Under the pieces are notes generated by a model. The model had not been told where the DNA came from. It saw only the letters and a list, made by a program, of their open reading frames with translations, and searched no databases. The position numbers and the translations under genes were made by a program. 36,275 nt of DNA from Pseudomonadota bacterium (GTDB taxonomy: Bacteria; Desulfobacterota; Syntrophia; Syntrophales; JADFWA01), in assembly GCA_030596145.1 (NCBI GenBank), contig JAUVKS010000001.1, positions 1-36,275 of the forward strand, given 5' to 3'. Below are positions 4,919 through 33,119 of the stretch, piece by piece. Position 1 is the first letter of the stretch, and each line of letters opens with the position of its first letter.

Positions 4919-6013
4919 TCACGCCAAAATATCCACGCCCTCCAGGGAAAACAGGTTTTGAACGTCGCGATATTCATCCTTTATTTTTAAATCATCCTTC
5001 TCTGTCACACACGTTAAATAATCTATGTCATATCCTAAAGCCGTGAGCTTTTCTCCAAGTTCTTCTAAAAACAATCTAATAAAATTACATATATTTTCAT
5101 CCTTACATTTCAATACACAGCTTATTTTTTTAGCCTTGATTTTCGCTTCAACAGTAATGTTGCCCAGGGCATCCATATCCAGCAGAAACAGAACTTTCTT
5201 CTCTTCCCGGCGGCCTTTGCCCTTTGAATCCCGATCTCCAAATTTCACAAATATCTCCGCCAGACCCATATTCTCCGGAAACAGCAGAGGAACCTGGAAC
5301 ATATATTTACCCTCATATTCCTGAAACAAATAATTTATCACCTGATGAGAGTTAATTATTTGCAAAGAGGAACGGACAAATCCGGCAAGTTTTTCCGCTG
5401 CGGGAAAATTTCTATTTTCCATCAACGACTGAAGCCTGCCGGACATCCTTATCAAGAGTTCCTTCAGGTTTTTAGAGGGATTCTTTACCTTCTCCATCAA
5501 GTAACCGAATTTGTGGACATAATCTCTAAAGAAGAAAGGTTTTTTTAAACTTTCCCTGGAAAATATCAACGATTCTAATATATTTTGTATATTCTTGACA
5601 TCTTCCTTTCCGAGATGCGCTGCAAGCTTCCCTAAATTTTCAGGACTGAACCTGCCTGTCCCTTCTATGAAAAACTCAAAAAGAGCTTTCGGGTTTGAAC
5701 GGTAAAATCTCAAACAATACATTAACCTGGAATTTTGCGATATTTCATTATGAACAATACGAAGGATAACACCGGGATGCAACTGTTCCACCTTTACCGC
5801 AACCTTTTCGCCTTTCTTAAGCGGCAGCTCGGAATCTGCCATAACTCTGCTGTTTTTCAGCAAAATCAGCGTTTTCCCGTAACGAGTGGTTTCCATGATT
5901 TCCGCTTCCACCACTTCGCCAACGGAAAGAGGAGGCAAAAATGCCGCTTTTTTTTGAATTTGCAACAGGTAATTTAGTTTATGGGATGCTATTGTGGGAG
6001 GAAGAATTTTCAT
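4919..6013 (-). CDS. Hypothetical protein with a FliK-like (Flg_hook-type) C-terminal region
   Basis: 364 aa. LFLLDMDALGNITVEAKIKAKKISCVLKCKDENICNFIRLFLEELGEKLTALGYDIDYLTCV parallels this window's FliK segment ITLNPPRLGTLDVDVLVRDNKVHVILQTENNDVRQILQSNVESLKSSLRNHGLVADTINV. The resemblance was judged by eye only. Confidence 0.5.
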   Translation of the reverse strand: MKILPPTIASHKLNYLLQIQKKAAFLPPLSVGEVVEAEIMETTRYGKTLILLKNSRVMADSELPLKKGEKVAVKVEQLHPGVILRIVHNEISQNSRLMYCLRFYRSNPKALFEFFIEGTGRFSPENLGKLAAHLGKEDVKNIQNILESLIFSRESLKKPFFFRDYVHKFGYLMEKVKNPSKNLKELLIRMSGRLQSLMENRNFPAAEKLAGFVRSSLQIINSHQVINYLFQEYEGKYMFQVPLLFPENMGLAEIFVKFGDRDSKGKGRREEKKVLFLLDMDALGNITVEAKIKAKKISCVLKCKDENICNFIRLFLEELGEKLTALGYDIDYLTCVTEKDDLKIKDEYRDVQNLFSLEGVDILA

Positions 6014-7045: not shown

Positions 7046-7819
7046 ATAAGGTATCCTTATTGAAATAACATTAAAGCCCGACTCATATGTAATATGAAAA
7101 AGAGCATCGTACTTTTTCAGGAGAAATAGCGCATATAACAATCTTTTATTTTCATTCAGATCATGAAGGGGATAGTCGGCTGAACTCCAATTTTCGATTA
7201 GTTCTTTTATTTGGATTTCGGGAATGGGAACTCCGGTATCCTCAATTTTGACATATATATGTGAATCATCATGGCCTGTAGAGATAACCAGCTCATTTAA
7301 TTCGCTGTCTTTCATGGAATTTAGCAAATGTCTGGTTATCGCCGACAGAAAAATGGAATAATCGGCTTTTACTCCTGATATTTCCGGAATTTCCCTGTCC
7401 AATATCAGTTTCTTTTTAATATTATGCTTAAACTCCGGGTAAAACTGAAGGAACGCCATTTCAGACTCTACAAGCTCGGATAAATTGATTCTTCGCAAGG
7501 CAGTGTCGCTCAGCATCTGAAATTTTCCTGTCACATCATTAAACAGGCTGAAAAATCTGTTTGCTTCCTTTGCAATCAAACCAGCATCTGAAATTATCTT
7601 TTTGCAGCCTTCCAGGATCTCGGCATCTATGTTATTGTTATTATTTATAATAAGTTTAAGGCGCTCCGCCCTCCTCTGTAAAAGCTCGGAACGACCCAAA
7701 ATCCCATTCAAGGGGCTGGCAAAGTTATGAAGAATGCCGGGGATAAGCTCCCTGAAAGTCGATTCAAATTCTTTTCCCAGTTCCTTAAAAACCTCTCTTT
7801 GTTTCTTGCTTCCATTCAT
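7037..7819 (-). CDS. Soluble histidine-kinase-like protein (H-box plus degenerate ATPase domain)
   Basis: H-box-like HNFASPLNGILGRSELL; N-box-like ITRHLLNSMKDS; G1-like IEDTGVPIP (second Gly replaced by Pro). No clear G2 (GxGLGL) box and no TM segment. Confidence 0.55.
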   Translation of the reverse strand: MNGSKKQREVFKELGKEFESTFRELIPGILHNFASPLNGILGRSELLQRRAERLKLIINNNNNIDAEILEGCKKIISDAGLIAKEANRFFSLFNDVTGKFQMLSDTALRRINLSELVESEMAFLQFYPEFKHNIKKKLILDREIPEISGVKADYSIFLSAITRHLLNSMKDSELNELVISTGHDDSHIYVKIEDTGVPIPEIQIKELIENWSSADYPLHDLNENKRLLYALFLLKKYDALFHITYESGFNVISIRIPYRD

Positions 7820-7889: not shown

Positions 7890-8393
7890 TTACAATAAAA
7901 CAAACTTAGTAAAATATATTTTTTTAATTATCTCATCATCCAACAAATTATTCAAGCTAATTTTAATTTCTTCTTTTAACCCCCTCCTGATTTCAGGCAA
8001 CTCCGAAGGATGAAAATCCCCCCTTACCCCCCTTTGGTAAAGGGGGGATGGGGGGATTTTTAAAAGCTCTTTCAATGTGTTATATATGATCTTTCTCAAC
8101 TCGATCCTCTTTTGCGGCAGTTTCATCCCTCGATTCAGTTCAATAACCACATCACAAATCAGAAACCTGTCCTTTTTATTATCATCTTTCAAATGAATAA
8201 TGAAGTCATTAAAATATTCAAACCTTTCTTCTGTAGAAAGAGTCTCTTGCGAACTTACTTCACAGAGCTCCTGACTCCTGACCTCCGACCCCGCCAGACT
8301 GACGGGGGGCAAGCTCTGACCTCCGATCTCTGGTCCTTGCCCCCTGACAGACCCGTTGCCTGCAAACAACGCAATGCACAGGCATACGGCCAT
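7890..8393 (-). CDS. FliL-like paralogue carrying two repeat-derived in-frame insertions
   Basis: C-terminus FLICDVVIELNRG...LKEEIKISLNNLLDDEIIKKIYFTKFVLL parallels FliL in this window (...RDEIAVRLNSYLTKGQVRRVYFTEFLIQ). Start chosen at ATG 8393 (MAVCLCIALFAG). The ORF-track start at 8447 adds an unrelated 18-aa fragment. Confidence 0.5.
   Translation of the reverse strand: MAVCLCIALFAGNGSVRGQGPEIGGQSLPPVSLAGSEVRSQELCEVSSQETLSTEERFEYFNDFIIHLKDDNKKDRFLICDVVIELNRGMKLPQKRIELRKIIYNTLKELLKIPPSPLYQRGVRGDFHPSELPEIRRGLKEEIKISLNNLLDDEIIKKIYFTKFVLL
8013..8060. repeat. 48-nt G/C-tract palindrome inserted in frame in the FliL-like CDS
   Basis: aaaatccccccttacccccctttggtaaaggggggatggggggatttt. A ~21-bp stem with one bulge; 16 codons (IPPSPLYQRGVRGDF). 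Confidence 0.9.
8280..8336. repeat. Dispersed GACCTCC/CCGCC-hairpin element inside the FliL-like CDS (copy of 26415-26500)
   Basis: gacctccgaccccgccagactgacggggggcaagctctgacctcc compared with 26415-26459: 43/45 identical. Confidence 0.9.
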
Positions 8394-8470
8394 CAAAACT
8401 CTGTATGCACAACCAATGATTTTCTCAGTCAATTCTCTGTGTTTCACTTATATGCCTTCATGAACTTATG

Positions 8471-8602: not shown

Positions 8603-9325
8603 CTAAGTAATGTCATGTCTGAATTTTTTCAAGCCGACCTTTAGTCTCAGTATTGCCTGGGAGTGGATTTGACAGACTCTTGATTCCGTCAATTTCAAGG
8701 TCAGTCCTATCTCCTTTAATGTTAATTCCTCATAATAATAAAGGGACAGCACCAGTTTTTCTTTTTCAGGGAGTGAATCTATTGCATTCTTCAATATGTT
8801 TTTAAGTTCCCTGTTGGCAAGAAGGAAAAAAGGATTGTTTTGATCAATTTTTTCCAACACATCATGCCTGCCGCATTTTTCACAGTAGCTCTGGGGCAAA
8901 TCATCCTTGCTCAGGATGCGGACACTCCTTGCTTCATCAAGAAGTTTATAATAATTTTTAAGTGATATGCCAAGATAATGCGAAATCTCTTCATCAGTTG
9001 GATGACGTCCGAACTTTTTCCGCAACACCTCAAGCGCATCTTTAATCATTGTTTCTTTGTTTCTAACTGATCTTGGCGCGTCATCTCTTGATCTTAATTC
9101 ATCCAATATGGCCCCCCGGATCCTGAACTGTGCATATGTTTCAAACCGCACCTTCTTAGTTTCGTCAAATTTCTCCAGGGCCGACATCAATCCCATTATG
9201 CCGACGCTGATTAAATCATCTGTGTCCACATGATCGGGGAGTCTCAGGGCAATCCTCCCGACAATATTCTTAACGAGAGGCAAATATTTAATTATCAGTT
9301 TCTCGCGCTCTTTTTTATAAGCCAT
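8603..9325 (-). CDS. fliA: Flagellar sigma factor FliA (sigma-28)
   Basis: 240 aa. Region 2 (VGIMGLMSALEKFD...FETYAQFRIRGAILDELR) and region 4 HTH (LSLYYYEELTLKEIGLTLKLTESRVCQIHSQAILRLK). Lies downstream of flhF-flhG. Confidence 0.9.
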   Translation of the reverse strand: MAYKKEREKLIIKYLPLVKNIVGRIALRLPDHVDTDDLISVGIMGLMSALEKFDETKKVRFETYAQFRIRGAILDELRSRDDAPRSVRNKETMIKDALEVLRKKFGRHPTDEEISHYLGISLKNYYKLLDEARSVRILSKDDLPQSYCEKCGRHDVLEKIDQNNPFFLLANRELKNILKNAIDSLPEKEKLVLSLYYYEELTLKEIGLTLKLTESRVCQIHSQAILRLKVGLKKFRHDIT

Positions 9326-13900: not shown

Positions 13901-14140
13901 TGCTCGTTACTCGTTGCTGGTTACTGGTTGCTCGTTACTGGTTGCGAATTACTCGTTGCTGGTTGCTCGTTGCTCGTTCCGAAAAGGAAATAGGAAAGAG
14001 TTAAGAGAAAAGGGTGTTACTCTATTCTCTAATCCTCTGACCTTTTAATCTTCTGACCTTCTAACCTTCTAACCTCCGACCTCCGACCTCCGACCTCCTT
14101 ACTCGACCACTTGACTATTTCCCCACTCGACCATTCCCCT
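13901..14140. repeat. Composite spacer: family D heptamers, element J, family C (incl. GACCTCC x3), family A
   Basis: tgctcgttactcgttgctggttactggttgctcgttactggttgc..., then the J element, then ctgaccttctaaccttctaacctccgacctccgacctccgacctcc, then ttactcgaccacttgactatttccccactcgacc. Confidence 0.95.
13972..14030. repeat. Dispersed element J, copy 1 (59 nt, 57/59 identical to 29491-29549), upstream of flhA
   Basis: gctcgttccgaaaaggaaataggaaagagttaagagaaaagggtgttactctattctct. Confidence 0.95.
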
Positions 14141-16471: not shown

Positions 16472-16640
16472 TTTAACAGGGTTCAAAGGTTCAAAGGTTC
16501 AGGGTTCAGGGTTGCTCGTTACTGGTTGCTGTCTAATCTTCTGACTTCTGACTTCTGACCTCCCTACTCGACCACTCGACCCGTCCGCCATCGGCTTCGC
16601 CTCAGGCGAATGCCGGGCGGGCCATTTCCCCACTCGACTA
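16472..16640. repeat. Composite spacer with B, D, C, A order plus a GC-rich imperfect palindrome (16580-16621)
   Basis: agggttcaaaggttcaaaggttcagggttcagggttgctcgttactggttgctgtctaatcttctgacttctgacttctgacctccctactcgaccactcgac; cccgtccgccatcggcttcgcctcaggcgaatgccgggcggg; ccatttccccactcgac. Confidence 0.95.
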
Positions 16641-25281: not shown

Positions 25282-26715
25282 TTACGCAAACAAACTGACA
25301 CGCCCGTCACTCCGGACGCTTGGGTTTTCTTCCTTAAACGATGAGGGGTCATGATTCAAGGAATCTTGTTCCCCCCCATGGTCTTCTTCGTTCCCTTCCC
25401 GATTTCTGCCTTCTCTAAATAATGTCTCATTCCGCCCGGAGCCGTAATTGCCGCCGTCCGGTTTTTCCTGAACAGATACATTTATGGTATCCGCGACCAA
25501 TCCATGATTGCGAAGAGAGCTTTTGAGACTTTCCACATTTGACTGTAATATCTGCCTGACATCATTATTTTCCGTCTGCAGGATAACATGCACTTTATTA
25601 TCCCTGACAAGCACATCCACATCCAGCGTGCCCAGACGGGGCGGGTTGAGCGTGATTCTTACCCTTCCTGGCTTCTTTACGCTGTTTGCAATCTGATTGA
25701 TCAAAGCCCGTGGTTCTACGTCGTAACTGTTCACGCTCTCATTGATGACTGCCGACCCGCTATCTGCATGAAAAGCGGTATGCTGATATCCCCCGGCAGA
25801 AAAATCCCTGTAAGATGGACGCTCCGGTGGTGAAGTCCCTCTATGAAGAATCCCCATAGCCTCTTCACCCTTAAGAGCCAAAGGTTTCAGTGAATTTCCG
25901 ATGCCATTTTTGCCGCCGCTGTCCGGCTCTACACTGCTCTTTGCTTTTACAACAACCGCATTCTTCAAACTGAACTTCAAAAGCCCCTGTTTCTCCTCCA
26001 TCTTTGCCTTCCGGCCATTGCCTTCTGTCCTATGGCCCCCGCCAGACTGACGGCGGTCAGGTCTGAGCAGGGCGTTGTTTATTCCGGCAATGTTCTTTCC
26101 ATTCTTAAAGAGAGCTGCATCGGTCTTTCCATTCATGATACCTGAGTCTAACGCCCGTTTCCCGAACGGGCCGATGAGGGCATCGGCCCCTACACGTACC
26201 TGAGCCTCATTCTTTCCGACAACCGCTTTAGCTTCACCCTTAAGAGCCAAAGGTTTCAGTGAATTTCCGATGCCATTTTTGCCGCCGCTGTCCGGCTCTA
26301 CACTGCTCTTTGCTTTTACAACAACCGCATTCTTCAAACTGAACTTCAAAAGTCCCGGAGCATCCACCATCTCTGCCCTCCCACCGGGGCGTAGGCCCCT
26401 ATGGGCCGGAGGCTGACCTCCGACCCCGCCAGACTGACGGCGGGCAAGCTCTGACCTCTGACCTCTGACCTCCGACCTCTGACCTCCGACCTCTGGTCCC
26501 CGGCCTTTCACAGGTAGCGATTGATTCGTTTTTTCCGTCTCTTGTGTCGTTATGCGGCATATCTGCCCCATCATACAAAAAAACGGCATCATCTGCTCCG
26601 GTTCCTTACCTGTCTGCCGTCGCACAGGCAGGCCGGTCTTCCTTTCCTGCAATTTTTCAGATGAGCCCAGAAGGCCGATGCCCTGTTTTAGATTCACCAG
26701 ATTAGACTCTATCAT
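25282..26715 (-). CDS. fliK: Hook-length control protein FliK (repeat-rich N-terminal/ruler half)
   Basis: C-terminal Flg_hook-type domain (RVRITLNPPRLGTLDVDVLVRDNKVHVILQTENNDVRQILQSNVESLKSSLRNHGL). Sits between ylxF-like and flgD. The N-terminal start is uncertain. Confidence 0.8.
   Translation of the reverse strand: MIESNLVNLKQGIGLLGSSEKLQERKTGLPVRRQTGKEPEQMMPFFCMMGQICRITTQETEKTNQSLPVKGRGPEVGGQRSEVRGQRSELARRQSGGVGGQPPAHRGLRPGGRAEMVDAPGLLKFSLKNAVVVKAKSSVEPDSGGKNGIGNSLKPLALKGEAKAVVGKNEAQVRVGADALIGPFGKRALDSGIMNGKTDAALFKNGKNIAGINNALLRPDRRQSGGGHRTEGNGRKAKMEEKQGLLKFSLKNAVVVKAKSSVEPDSGGKNGIGNSLKPLALKGEEAMGILHRGTSPPERPSYRDFSAGGYQHTAFHADSGSAVINESVNSYDVEPRALINQIANSVKKPGRVRITLNPPRLGTLDVDVLVRDNKVHVILQTENNDVRQILQSNVESLKSSLRNHGLVADTINVSVQEKPDGGNYGSGRNETLFREGRNREGNEEDHGGEQDSLNHDPSSFKEENPSVRSDGRVSLFA
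25863..25983. repeat. 121-bp perfect direct repeat inside fliK, copy 1
   Basis: cttcacccttaagagccaaaggtttcagtgaatttccgatgcc...caaactgaacttcaaaag is identical to 26232-26352. The offset is 369 nt, i.e. 123 codons. Confidence 0.95.
26232..26352. repeat. 121-bp perfect direct repeat inside fliK, copy 2
   Basis: Base-for-base identical to 25863-25983. Encodes GLLKFSLKNAVVVKAKSSVEPDSGGKNGIGNSLKPLALKGE twice. Confidence 0.95.
26415..26500. repeat. Dispersed GACCTCC/CCGCC-hairpin element with an expanded GACCTCT heptamer run, inside fliK
   Basis: gacctccgaccccgccagactgacggcgggcaagctctgacctctgacctctgacctccgacctctgacctccgacctctggtcc. A partial third copy lies at 26036-26068. Confidence 0.9.
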
Positions 26716-32909: not shown

Positions 32910-33119
32910 CAAGAGGTTCAAGGTTCAAGATTCAAGATTCACAGTTCAAGATTCACGGTTCATGGTTCAAGGTTGCTCGTTGCTCGTTACTGGTTGCTGT
33001 CTAATCTTCTAATCCTCTAATCTTCTGACCTTCTGCTGGTTGCTCGTTACTGGTTGGTGTCTAATCTTCCGACCTTCTGACCTTCTAATCTTCTAATCTT
33101 CCGACCTCTGACCTCTGTT
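32910..33119. repeat. Composite spacer B, D, C, D, C (fliE-fliF), with an internal ~33-nt D-C module duplicated
   Basis: ggttcaaggttcaagattcaagattcacagttcaagattcacggttcatggttcaagg. ttgctcgttactggttgctgtctaatcttct recurs at ~32971, ~33031 and 16510. Confidence 0.9.

What the first reader, a model, noticed from the sequence alone, without database searches (positions are those of the whole stretch)
8280..8336. The same repeat element sits inside two different proteins and is read in two different frames
A 45-nt element (gacctccgaccccgccagactgacgg[g/c]gggcaagctctgacctc) occurs in the FliL-like ORF at 8280-8324 and in fliK at 26415-26459, with a partial copy at 26036-26068. Both proteins start it in the same frame (G-x-G-P-E-[IV]-G-G-Q).

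The fliK copy has extra GACCTCT heptamers, and heptamers are not a multiple of three. The remainder is therefore translated as ELARRQSGGVGGQP in FliK but as SLPPVSLAGSEV in the FliL-like protein. This shows intergenic-type repeats colonising coding DNA, with heptamer copy number setting the frame. The situation resembles Rickettsia palindromic elements that insert in frame into genes.
Basis: partly seen in the sequence, partly recalled or inferred. Interest (0 to 1): 0.6.

Follow-up and report, generated by a model that had tools for sequence, protein, structure and literature searches.

The report
Frame-rotating repeat tract inside flagellar proteins
Two flagellar genes carry, in floppy linker regions, the same 7-base repeats and an ultra-conserved 31-base unit that fill the gaps between genes; because 7 and 31 are not multiples of three, the same DNA is read in different frames, and related bacteria show this in at least ten unrelated proteins.

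Summary
A shared stretch (44 of 45 bases identical) lies in the FliL-like ORF (8280-8324) and in fliK (26415-26459). fliK has four extra heptamers (28 nt, a +1 shift), so the same bases read SLPPVSLAG in one protein and ELARRQSGG in the other.

What it is:
- **Tract family:** GGTCRGA-type heptamer tracts of the kind that fills the intergenic gaps here. They lie on the strand where the A-containing units have no stop in any frame.
- **Core unit:** a 31-nt unit, GAGCTTGCCCGCCGTCAGTCTGGCGGGGTCR, embedded in the tract.
- **Conservation:** its 26-nt core occurs exactly in 30 loci of other Desulfobacterales-type MAGs and metagenomes, at 1-5 copies per genome in the nine genomes checked. That is better conserved than the FliK C-terminal domain.

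Evidence that the tracts are translated:
- Orthologues have tracts at the same linker positions with very different lengths (about 30 to 600 nt).
- The frame is kept, and indels between close relatives are multiples of three.
- AlphaFold places the FliL-like tract in a disordered linker.

Related FliK proteins carry three tandem units read in all three frames. The unit also sits in frame in an RNase II-family protein, histidine kinases, a chemotaxis receptor, dihydroorotase, an epimerase and TPR proteins.

It works like Rickettsia palindromic elements but is not one of them. I rate it a new variant of a known kind.

The parts
7890..8447 (-). FliL-like ORF (185 aa from GTG 8447, or 167 aa from ATG 8393). 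It has an N-terminal hydrophobic signal or anchor, a repeat-coded linker, and then a FliL-type domain.
   Evidence: - ORF and translation.
- Pfam FliL.
- 41 homologues aligned.
- AlphaFold gives helix 2-30, residues 32-69 with pLDDT below 50, and a domain at 75-184 with pLDDT about 90.
8268..8349 (-). Heptamer tract (sense GGTCRGA and variants) that codes the linker ..RGQGPEIGGQ[SLPPVSLAGS]EVRSQE.. of the FliL-like protein.
   Evidence: - Sequence and repeats.
- Orthologues have a tract at the same spot, about 30 to 600 nt long and always in frame.
8286..8316 (-). 31-nt conserved unit (sense GAGCTTGCCCCCCGTCAGTCTGGCGGGGTCG), read as SLPPVSLAG. It carries one private change (C to G on the + strand) in the hairpin stem.
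   Evidence: -.
- The 26-nt core is 8291-8316.
8008..8064 (-). Second, unrelated in-frame insert in the FliL-like domain. It is a 57-nt nested palindrome, AAAATCCCCCCATCCCCCCTTT-ACC-AAAGGGGGGTAAGGGGGGATTTT.., coding ..KIPPSPLYQRGVRGDFHP..
   Evidence: - It is absent from the close relative L101 as an exact 57-nt gap and from the G000:C197, G305 and G301 copies.
- It is shared by P0003-P0007.
- 17 matches to its central palindrome motif lie in the bin's assembly, several with the flanking GGGGGGAT arms.
- It falls in a low-pLDDT loop at aa 131-146.
25282..26715 (-). fliK (477 aa): a conserved N-terminus, a repeat-rich ruler region and a C-terminal Flg_hook domain.
   Evidence: -.
- The N-terminus NLxNLKQxIGLxGxSEK...MMPFxCxMG is conserved in G301, G305 and 25 database homologues.
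26413..26500 (-). fliK heptamer tract with the 31-nt unit, coding ..GRGPEVGGQRSEVRGQRS[ELARRQSGGV]GGQ..
   Evidence: -.
- There are six heptamers at 26452-26493, against two in the FliL-like gene.
26421..26451 (-). 31-nt conserved unit in fliK with the consensus sequence, read as ELARRQSGG.
   Evidence: -.
- The 26-nt core is 26426-26451.
26038..26056 (-). Decayed copy of the unit at the head of the other fliK duplication unit, read in the same frame (..PDRRQSGGG..).
   Evidence: -.
- The G301 orthologue has a full unit at this position.
- P0047 has two units there.
25863..26407 (-). 369-nt-period in-frame tandem duplication of a fliK ruler module (25863-26038 and 26232-26407, 88% identical). 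Each module is preceded in mRNA sense by a unit or tract.
   Evidence: - (repeat family D12).
- Orthologues have a tract, with or without units, before each ..EMxDAPGLLKFSLKN module.

Best explanation
**What it is**
- These are translated, non-triplet microsatellite tracts in disordered linkers.
- The lineage that owns this flagellar cluster is a Desulfobacterales-type bacterium close to MAGs CSMAG_410 and MAG063. It carries tracts of 7-nt units (sense GGTCRGA).
- Interspersed in the tracts is a nearly invariant 31-nt unit, GAGCTTGCCCGCCGTCAGTCTGGCGGGGTCR. This is a short GC hairpin whose loop looks like one heptamer.

**Where the tracts lie**
- They fill intercistronic gaps.
- They also sit in places where a protein tolerates any flexible peptide: after the signal or anchor of the FliL-like protein, in the FliK ruler region, between domains, and in surface loops.

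**Why they can be translated**
- The tracts are almost always oriented with transcription.
- On that strand neither the heptamers nor the unit has a stop in any frame.
- The opposite strand of A-containing units meets TGA in every frame.

**Why the frame rotates**
- Slippage or unequal exchange changes tract length in steps of 7 or 31 nt, and both leave remainder 1 on division by 3.
- Each added unit therefore rotates the frame of everything downstream within the tract.
- Only variants whose net change is a multiple of three bases keep the downstream domain, and these are what is seen.
- Hence the same 31 nt is read as ELARRQSGG, SLPAVSLAG or ACPPSVWRG, depending on how many units precede it.

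**Shown here**
- The anatomy, the orthologous positions, frame maintenance, and placement in a disordered linker or loop (modelled for the FliL-like protein).
- Use of all three frames, the spread over unrelated proteins, and conservation of the unit at the nucleotide level.

**Inferred**
- Slippage as the source of length change.
- That the peptides act only as linker or spacer, which in FliK would contribute to ruler length.
- That conservation of the unit reflects a DNA- or RNA-level role or repeated copying, since it cannot be protein-level.
For: **Anatomy and frames**
-.

**Conservation of the unit**
- The 26-nt core matches exactly in 10 genome loci and 20 metagenome loci. Almost all are flanked as ..GGTCR-core-GGTCR.., even where no heptamer array is present.
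- There are 1-5 copies per genome with 0-2 mismatches.
- The best-conserved part of fliK is only 80-82% identical at nucleotide level between the window and G301 or G305.

**Orientation**
- In about 85% of the 43 copies, the flanking or enclosing ORFs point the same way as the unit.

**Orthologous tracts, in frame**
- FliL-like copies in the window, G000:C197, G305 and G301. The G301 tract is about 600 nt and codes about 200 aa of SEVGSQE-type repeats.
- 32 aligned homologues nearly all have a GQxSEV-type linker after CLCIALFAG.
- FliK of G305 has a tract at the same place.

**Indels are multiples of three**
- In the close relative L101 (about 90% nt identity) the indels within the gene body are 45 nt (two heptamers plus one unit), 24 nt and 57 nt.
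- In fliK against L102, every gap is a multiple of 3 or sums to one (46 + 26 = 72).

**Frame rotation**
- P0010/L101 has two units read ELARRQSGG and then SLPAVSLAG.
- L102/P0046 has 3 x 31 nt perfect tandem units read ACPPSVWRG-RSLPAVSLAGS-ELARRQSGGV.

**Other proteins carrying the unit in frame**
- An RNase II-family protein, between the HTH_RNase_II and RNB domains.
- A hybrid kinase, between HATPase_c and the receiver domain.
- A kinase-GGDEF protein, inside HATPase_c.
- Two TPR proteins.
- A chemotaxis receptor tail, dihydroorotase and an NAD-epimerase.

**Structure**
- AlphaFold: the linker at 32-69 has pLDDT below 50, next to a confident domain.

**Independent assemblies**
- The tracts are identical in independent assemblies.
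Against: - No direct evidence of translation exists: no proteomics or ribosome profiling is available.
- One orthologue is out of frame. G301 fliK is split by a +1 shift and a TAA inside its heptamers. A tract can therefore break a gene, or that assembly has an error there.
- Database proteins are called ORFs, so the protein-level survey is biased toward in-frame cases.
- The hairpin is no more stable than shuffled controls (z = -0.02), and no compensatory changes were seen. A structural role for the unit is therefore unsupported.
- Why the unit is so conserved is not explained by slippage alone.
- No coding-tract length variation was seen among three assemblies of the same species.
Confidence: 0.75

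Rival explanations
1. Recent ectopic gene conversion or template switching between the fliK tract and the FliL-like tract, 18 kb apart, copied the block from one gene to the other. On this view their near-identity is a private, recent event. This is not exclusive of the main explanation.
For: - The similarity extends beyond the unit. The upstream GGACCAGAG[A/G]TCGGAGGTCAGAG is 22 of 23 identical, and the downstream GGTCGGAGGTCAG is 13 of 13 identical.
- The ACCAGAG variant heptamer (GPE) at the fliK tract edge is not seen in other FliK orthologues but is common in FliL-like orthologues.
Against: - The 26-nt core is identical in dozens of unrelated loci, and GGTCGGAGGTCAG flanks recur elsewhere, for example in L036 and L054. 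Most of the identity therefore needs no private event.
- The FliL-like copy carries a private substitution.
- Units occur in other FliL-like orthologues (P0004, P0005, P0010, P0019) and FliK orthologues (G301, P0046, P0047, P0052, P0058) independently.
Confidence: 0.2
2. The tracts are contingency loci. Gain or loss of one unit by slippage frameshifts fliK or the FliL-like gene, giving reversible on/off switching of hook-length control or motility. The in-frame state is simply the majority phase.
For: - The unit lengths are not multiples of three and lie inside the coding sequence of surface-organelle genes, which is the classical layout.
- G301 fliK is out of frame exactly within its heptamers.
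- An intergenic octamer array differs by one unit between assemblies of the same species, at window 7885.
- The 7/8-nt arrays are densest on the three flagellar contigs.
Against: - The coding tracts are identical in three assemblies for the FliL-like gene and two for fliK.
- The window tracts are imperfect, with alternating C/T variants and no run of more than two identical heptamers. This lowers slippage.
- The unit also sits in housekeeping enzymes such as dihydroorotase and an RNase II-family protein, where switching makes little sense.
Confidence: 0.2
3. The 31-nt unit is a very small mobile or templated element with its own machinery (a recombinase, a HUH enzyme acting on the hairpin, or copying from a master RNA). 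It targets heptamer tracts and spreads horizontally, and its conservation reflects recent copying rather than function.
For: - There are near-identical copies in many genomes with low copy number and no 3-mismatch copies. The distribution is 14 copies with 0 mismatches, 7 with 1 and 4 with 2.
- It is absent from all 300 sampled genomes of the bin's own order yet present in several other lineages.
- It has constant GGTCR flanks, it can be tandem (L032, L102), and it appears in loci without heptamers (L050, L088).
Against: - There are no terminal inverted repeats and no consistent target-site duplication.
- 31 nt is far below known transposable units.
- No associated gene was identified.
- The patchy taxonomy may partly be mis-binning of short contigs.
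Confidence: 0.15
4. The regions are not translated. True starts lie downstream or the genes are decaying, and the open frames are an accident of stop-free repeats.
For: - Stop-free repeats do extend ORFs artificially elsewhere. L033, L042 and L049 have unit-bearing ORFs with no domains.
- Many window ORFs also run into upstream arrays.
Against: - Conserved protein sequence lies on both sides of the tract in one frame. For the FliL-like protein this is the signal or anchor CLCIALFAG upstream and the domain downstream. For FliK it is the conserved N-terminus upstream and Flg_hook downstream. This holds in many orthologues with different tract lengths.
- Indels are multiples of three.
- A FliL-type protein needs its N-terminal anchor, and FliK is generally thought to need its N-terminus for export (established knowledge of these families).
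Confidence: 0.05
5. The shared stretch is an assembly artefact: repeats were collapsed or joined chimerically.
For: - The source is a fragmented metagenome bin of 227 contigs.
- A second fliK copy is cut at a contig end.
Against: - Unique flanks lie on both sides within one 36-kb contig.
- The tracts are identical in contigs from other JGI samples.
- The same architecture is seen in many independent studies.
Confidence: 0.02

Closest known systems
Rickettsia palindromic elements (RPEs)
   Same: - Dispersed palindrome-containing repeats that are found in frame inside unrelated, functional genes.
- They add a peptide in places compatible with the fold (review PMC10969869).
- Here the unit is in at least ten unrelated protein families, in linkers or loops.
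   Different: - RPEs are about 150 bp, confined to Rickettsia, and each encodes one conserved peptide in one frame (PMC10969869).
- This unit is 31 nt and rides in 7-nt microsatellite tracts.
- It has only 1-5 copies per genome in the nine genomes checked and is read in all three frames.
- The 57-nt nested palindrome at 8008-8064 is the closer formal analogue of an RPE.
Borg tandem repeats that create disordered regions in proteins (Schoelmerich et al. 2023, PMC9879509)
   Same: - The same repeat phenomenon occupies intergenic DNA and ORFs.
- It evolves fast and creates disordered segments, often in membrane or extracellular proteins.
- Homologous proteins carry repeats at the same place.
   Different: - In Borgs, all repeat units inside ORFs have lengths divisible by three and give perfect amino-acid repeats (PMC9879509).
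- Here the units are 7 and 31 nt. The peptide period is three units, and the frame of any given unit depends on its position.
Bacterial heptamer simple-sequence repeats. Examples are TAACTGA in Beggiatoaceae and cyanobacteria (PMC4679880), GGGNATC in Xanthomonas and Nostoc (PMC4692102), the heptanucleotide elements 'within genes' of Geobacter metallireducens (PMC2700814), and the long SSRs of Mrazek et al. 2007 as summarised in PMC4679880.
   Same: - 7-nt units, mostly intergenic, between co-oriented genes.
- They are strand-biased, with one strand full of stops and the other translatable.
- They occur occasionally inside ORFs and have a patchy phylogenetic distribution.
   Different: - Those reports treat genic copies as rare exceptions.
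- None of those I read describes an embedded invariant longer unit, conserved orthologous coding positions across a protein family, or frame rotation of the same unit within one protein.
- The core sequence was not found in any searchable paper or in Rfam.
Contingency loci (phase variation by simple-sequence repeats in coding regions)
   Same: Repeat units that are not multiples of three lie inside the coding sequence of surface-structure genes. One orthologue (G301 fliK) is frameshifted within the tract.
   Different: - No copy-number switching has been demonstrated.
- The tracts are imperfect.
- The same unit also sits in housekeeping enzymes.
REP/BIME extragenic palindromes
   Same: A short GC-rich hairpin in intercistronic positions, oriented with transcription, often just after a stop codon.
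   Different: - REPs are extragenic and high-copy, and are tied to RAYT transposases.
- This unit is low-copy, is tolerated in coding DNA, and has no identified partner enzyme.

Membership tests
Rickettsia palindromic elements (RPE) | An element of about 100-150 bp belonging to one of the described RPE families and found in Rickettsia | tested here: not met
   - The unit is 31 nt.
- The hosts are Desulfobacterales-type MAGs.
- The defining feature is taken from PMC10969869.
Rickettsia palindromic elements (RPE) | Inserted in frame in unrelated protein-coding genes | tested here: met
   Found in frame in FliK, the FliL-like protein, an RNase II-family protein, two histidine kinases, two TPR proteins, a chemotaxis receptor, dihydroorotase and an epimerase.
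Rickettsia palindromic elements (RPE) | Each element encodes one conserved peptide, always in one reading frame | tested here: not met
   Three frames are used. All three occur in tandem in P0046/L102.
MITE (miniature inverted-repeat transposable element) | Terminal inverted repeats and target-site duplications | tested here: not met
   - No terminal inverted repeats are present.
- The GGTCR flanks could mimic a 5-bp duplication inside heptamers, but they are absent or different in L043, L045, L050 and L088.
Contingency locus (SSR phase variation) | A repeat unit not divisible by three, inside a coding sequence or promoter | tested here: met
   7-nt and 31-nt units lie inside the ORFs.
Contingency locus (SSR phase variation) | Unit number varies within or between populations and switches the frame | tested here: inconclusive
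   - The coding tracts are identical in 2-3 assemblies.
- G301 fliK is out of frame.
- An intergenic octamer varies by one unit.
Borg-type amino-acid tandem repeats | Genic repeat units divisible by three, giving perfect amino-acid repeats | tested here: not met
   The units are 7 and 31 nt. The defining feature is taken from PMC9879509.
Borg-type amino-acid tandem repeats | Repeats create intrinsically disordered regions at equivalent places in homologous proteins | tested here: met
   AlphaFold gives pLDDT below 50 for residues 32-69. The linker position is the same in 32 homologues.
REP/BIME | High-copy extragenic palindromes associated with a RAYT transposase | tested here: not met
   - There are 1-5 copies per genome and genic copies are frequent.
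- The presence of a RAYT was not tested.
Known RNA families (Rfam 15) | Match to a curated covariance model | tested here: not met
   No relevant hit at E <= 1 in five unit-bearing loci.

The most novel reading that the evidence does not exclude
The 31-nt unit could be a conserved cis-acting module: a hairpin that displays one heptamer in its loop. A dedicated factor would recognise it and nucleate, copy or maintain heptamer tracts, and the module would move between Desulfobacterales lineages. That would make it a 'tract-riding' micro-element. Being stop-free in every sense frame, it could colonise protein linkers and intergenic spacers alike, and in flagellar genes it could double as a frame-rotating switch.
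Probability: 0.15. Interest if true: 0.8.

Novelty: new variant of a known kind. Interest (0 to 1): 0.62.

Why it matters
- **Non-triplet repeats as stable coding sequence.** In one bacterial lineage, repeats of 7 and 31 nt are not just tolerated accidents in coding DNA. They are a regular building material for protein linkers, kept in frame across whole protein families.
- **Selection below the protein level.** The same DNA is translated in all three frames. This is a clean natural case where selection on a sequence must act on DNA or RNA, because the unit is better conserved than the neighbouring FliK domain.
- **Link to a measurable trait.** In Salmonella, FliK length sets hook length (established knowledge). 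Repeat dynamics here may therefore affect hook length and possibly motility switching.
- **Practical consequence.** Gene callers and annotators will mis-start, split or over-extend genes at such tracts, as seen with G301 fliK and the ORFs that run into arrays.

Tried and rejected
- **Dispersed repeat of the window's own genome: rejected.** Only the two copies and one partial copy exist in the 1.76-Mb bin at up to 2 mismatches. None exists in 300 genomes of the bin's order.
- **fliK-to-FliL-like transfer: dropped as the main explanation.** I first inferred this from the duplicated RRQSGG in fliK. Exact copies then turned up in 30 foreign loci and in other FliL-like orthologues.
- **Known RNA family or published element: none found.** No Rfam hit and no paper containing the sequence.
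- **Hairpin as a significant structure: not supported.** The fold energy equals that of shuffled controls. The observed variants lie mostly in the loop or outer stem, and none is compensatory.
- **Transposon hallmarks: absent.** No terminal inverted repeats and no consistent target-site duplication.
- **Unit-bearing ORFs in L033, L042 and L049: treated as non-coding.** They have no Pfam domains.
- **Programmed +1 frameshifting at GGG-TAA in G301 fliK: not pursued.** An AGAGGG precedes the site, but this is a single case with poor re-pairing of the tRNA.
Full report
**1. Observation**

None is expected by chance. A 19-nt piece recurs at 26038-26056.

All three lie inside minus-strand ORFs:
- The FliL-like ORF, 7890-8447, is 185 aa, with Pfam FliL on residues 154-183.
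- fliK, 25282-26715, is 477 aa, with Flg_hook on residues 344-420.

In mRNA sense, both genes enter the shared block as G-x-G-P-E-[IV]-G-G-Q. fliK then has six GAGGTCR heptamers and the FliL-like gene has two. That is 28 nt more, a +1 shift. The following bases therefore read ELARRQSGGVGGQP in FliK and SLPPVSLAGSEV in the FliL-like protein.

Contigs from two other JGI samples (L099, L100; 99-100% identical) carry the identical FliL-like tract. A same-species JGI protein (P0045) carries the identical FliK tract. This is therefore not an assembly artefact.

**2. What the element is**

The window is saturated with 7- and 8-nt tandem repeats between genes. GACCTCY heptamers (sense GGTCRGA) occur in intergenic gaps at 14072-14098, 16538-16559 and 33103-33117.

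The non-heptamer core, CCGCCAGACTGACGGNGGGCAAGCTC, is not a dispersed repeat of this bin:
- Only these copies exist in its 1.76 Mb.
- None exists in 300 genomes of the bin's GTDB order, including all seven of its family.

Exact-match scans then changed the picture:
- They found the core in 10 loci of species-representative genomes. These are Desulfobacteraceae and Desulfobacterales MAGs, Candidatus Desulfaltia bathyphila, a Thermodesulfobacteriota MAG, and short contigs in bins labelled otherwise.
- They also found it in 20 metagenome contigs.
- The core is almost always flanked as ..GGTCR-core-GGTCR.. and usually sits inside heptamer arrays.
- The repeating unit is 31 nt, GAGCTTGCCCGCCGTCAGTCTGGCGGGGTCR. 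It is seen as 2.5 tandem copies in L032 and three perfect copies in L102.
- Genomes that have it carry 1-5 copies with 0-2 mismatches.

For scale, the best-conserved part of fliK is only 80-82% identical in DNA between the window and its closest genome relatives. The unit is therefore more conserved than the protein domain next to it. Because it is read in three frames and also lies outside genes, that conservation cannot be protein-level.

The unit can form a 6-7 bp GC hairpin whose loop resembles a heptamer. The fold is no better than shuffled sequence, and no compensatory changes were seen. There is no Rfam match and no paper containing the sequence.

**3. Are the tracts translated?**

*FliL-like orthologues.* The closest flagellar orthologues are in G301 (Desulfobacteraceae CSMAG_410) and G305 (Thermodesulfobacteriota MAG063).
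- Four FliL-like copies were compared: the window, G000:C197, G305 and G301.
- All have a heptamer tract at exactly the same place, between the hydrophobic N-terminal segment ..CLCIALFAG and the conserved ERFEYFNDF.. domain.
- The tract lengths are about 30, 50, 75 and 600 nt, and all are in frame.
- Of 41 database homologues, the 32 I aligned nearly all have a GQxSEV-type linker there.
- Several carry the unit: P0004 and P0005 as SLPAVSLAG, P0019 as ELARRQSGG, and P0010 with two units, one in each frame.

*Indels against a close relative.* The DNA of P0010 (L101) is syntenic and about 90% identical. Within the gene body it differs from the window gene by three indels, all multiples of three:
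- 45 nt, which is two heptamers plus one unit
- 24 nt
- 57 nt

*fliK orthologues.*
- The N-terminus upstream of the tract is conserved in G301, G305 and 25 homologues.
- Every ..EMxDAPGLLKFSLKN ruler module is preceded by a tract, with or without units.
- P0046/L102 has three tandem units (93 nt) read ACPPSVWRG-RSLPAVSLAGS-ELARRQSGGV, and this block occurs twice.
- Gaps between the window gene and the L102 gene are multiples of three or sum to one.

*Structure.* AlphaFold, run with the family alignment, gives a helix at 2-30, pLDDT below 50 for residues 32-69 (the tract), and a confident domain at 75-184.

*The one exception.* G301 fliK has a full unit at the position of the window's decayed copy, in the ELARRQSGG frame of the C-terminal part. 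The gene is nevertheless split by a +1 shift and a TAA inside its heptamers.

**4. Generality**

Oriented as GAGCTTG.., about 85% of 43 copies point the same way as the neighbouring or enclosing ORFs. On that strand neither the heptamers nor the unit contains a stop in any frame. On the other strand, A-containing units meet TGA in every frame within 21 nt (read directly from the sequence).

In intergenic cases the unit often lies 6-30 nt after the upstream stop. The last heptamer can supply the GGAGG of the next gene's ribosome-binding site, as in L026.

The unit is in frame in the following proteins:

| Protein | Position of the unit |
|---|---|
| RNase II-family protein (L032) | between the HTH_RNase_II and RNB domains |
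| Hybrid histidine kinase (L096) | between HATPase_c and the receiver domain |
| Kinase-GGDEF protein (L050) | inside HATPase_c |
| Two TPR proteins (L029, L045) | inside the protein; in L029 TPR repeats lie on both sides |
| Methyl-accepting chemotaxis protein (P0070) | C-terminal tail |
| Dihydroorotase (P0071) | near the N-terminus |
| NAD-dependent epimerase (P0073) | inside the protein |

The rough frame tally in credible proteins is about 15 for ELARRQSGG, 8 for SLPAVSLAG and 3 for ACPPSVWRG. This suggests mild protein-level filtering against the Cys/Trp frame, but the counts are not independent.

**5. Mechanism**

The best-supported reading is as follows:
- Heptamer tracts with embedded 31-nt units are a hypervariable, transcription-oriented repeat system.
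- The system occupies intercistronic spacers and any protein segment that tolerates a flexible peptide.
- Length changes come in steps of 7 or 31 nt, and both leave remainder 1 on division by 3.
- The frame in which a given unit is read is therefore the number of preceding units modulo three.
- Only variants that differ by a whole number of codons preserve the downstream domain.

This explains several observations at once:
- the two frames in the window
- the two frames within one FliL-like protein
- the three frames within one FliK
- the 45-nt indel
- the 7-residue peptide period (GQRSEVR)

The near-identity of the window's two copies is mainly the universal conservation of the unit and its flanks. 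A recent exchange between the two tracts may have contributed but is not needed.

I consider translation of the tracts very likely. Slippage as the mutational source, and a purely spacer role for the peptides, are inferences. In FliK, by analogy with Salmonella, the tract would add to ruler length.

Phase variation is possible but has no direct support. The reason for the unit's conservation is open: a DNA or RNA function, or repeated copying.

**6. Comparison with what is known**

- **RPEs.** It behaves like Rickettsia palindromic elements, with in-frame presence in unrelated genes at fold-compatible sites (PMC10969869). It fails their defining features of size, host and a single frame.
- **Borg repeats.** It resembles the Borg tandem repeats that create disordered regions at equivalent positions of homologous proteins. 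There, however, all genic units are divisible by three (PMC9879509).
- **Bacterial heptamer repeats.** It belongs to this broad class, along with TAACTGA (PMC4679880), GGGNATC (PMC4692102), and the Geobacter metallireducens elements found 'even within genes' (PMC2700814).
- **What appears new.** Several features did not appear in the papers I could search: the invariant 31-nt unit, the conserved coding positions across families, and the frame rotation.

I rate it a new variant of a known kind.

**7. Caveats**

- The bin is probably mixed, or the cluster was transferred.
  - GroEL on another contig is 85-92% identical to the bin's nominal relatives and 75-76% to G301 and G305.
  - The flagellar proteins show the opposite pattern, 41-45% against 60-69%.
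  - The count of 'two copies in the own genome' therefore says little about the true host.
- Protein-database surveys are biased toward in-frame cases.

Noticed in passing
window 8008-8064 (-): A 57-nt nested palindrome (AAAATCCCCCCATCCCCCCTTT-ACC-AAAGGGGGGTAAGGGGGGATTTT..) is inserted in frame in the folded FliL-type domain. It codes KIPPSPLYQRGVRGDFHP, falls in a low-confidence loop, and is absent as an exact 57-nt gap in the close relative L101. The bin's assembly has 17 matches to its central palindrome motif, several with the flanking arms. This is the closer formal analogue of an RPE.
   Followed up: partly
G000 contigs C114 (the window), C4 and C197: The density of 7/8-nt arrays is highest on the three flagellar contigs, at 71, 62 and 58 bases per kb. 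It is 45 or less on every other contig, and 79 contigs have none.
   Followed up: no
G000:C197:19203-19640 and G000:C4:9182-9847: The bin holds a second FliL-like gene (66% identity) and a second fliK C-terminus (72% identity, cut at a contig end). This means either two flagellar clusters or two co-binned populations.
   Followed up: partly
whole window, compared with G000:C173: Phylogenetic discordance. GroEL is closest to the bin's nominal genus and family (85-92%), whereas the flagellar genes are closest to outside MAGs G301 and G305 (60-69% against 41-45%). The contig is likely mis-binned or horizontally acquired.
   Followed up: partly
G000:C95:4707-4761 and G000:C163:900-931: Two more heptamer arrays lie inside credible ORFs. 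(GGGGTCA/GGGATCA) x8 codes RGSGIRGQGSGVRGQGSED in a 958-aa ORF, between its N-terminal TPR-rich body and a C-terminal TPR-like tail. (GAATTCG) x4.5 lies inside the receiver domain of a hybrid kinase without changing its length.
   Followed up: no
window 7885; also 8412, 9178-9215, 7580-7704 and 5082-5115: Same-species contigs L099 and L100 both have one extra GTCGAGTA octamer just after the FliL-like stop codon. Each also has further indels relative to the window: a 42-nt duplication at the FliL-like N-terminus and a 38-nt deletion in L099, and 125-nt and 34-nt deletions in L100.
   Followed up: partly
FliL-like orthologues P0007, P0008, P0012, P0016, P0020, P0021, P0027; also P0021, L032 and L101:3001-3549: Other small inserts (palindromic where the DNA was seen) sit in frame in this family. 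KPVCRDEHGxG is one (palindrome CCTGTCTGCCGTG..CACGGCACAGGCAGG in G305). EPQKRAHS...CCGELQ occurs in both FliL-like P0021 and the RNase II-family protein of L032. A 24-nt GGCCTGTTCCCCGAACAGGCC occurs in L101.
   Followed up: no
L034:1780-1870 (G301 fliK): fliK is split into two ORFs by a +1 shift at ..AGAGGG-TAA-A.. inside its heptamer tract, just before a full 31-nt unit. This could be a pseudogene, a phase-off state, an assembly error or recoding. It was not resolved.
   Followed up: partly
window 8394-8447 (-): The 18-codon N-terminal extension (V)KHRELTEKIIGCAYRVL of the FliL-like ORF is shared by some orthologues (P0008, P0009, P0012, P0030). It also hits a non-coding place in G301 at 89% identity. 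Most other orthologues begin with a different N-terminus (MTLLSQIVVAGYYKK-type) or at the internal ATG, which is 8393 in the window. Either start lies upstream of the tract.
   Followed up: partly
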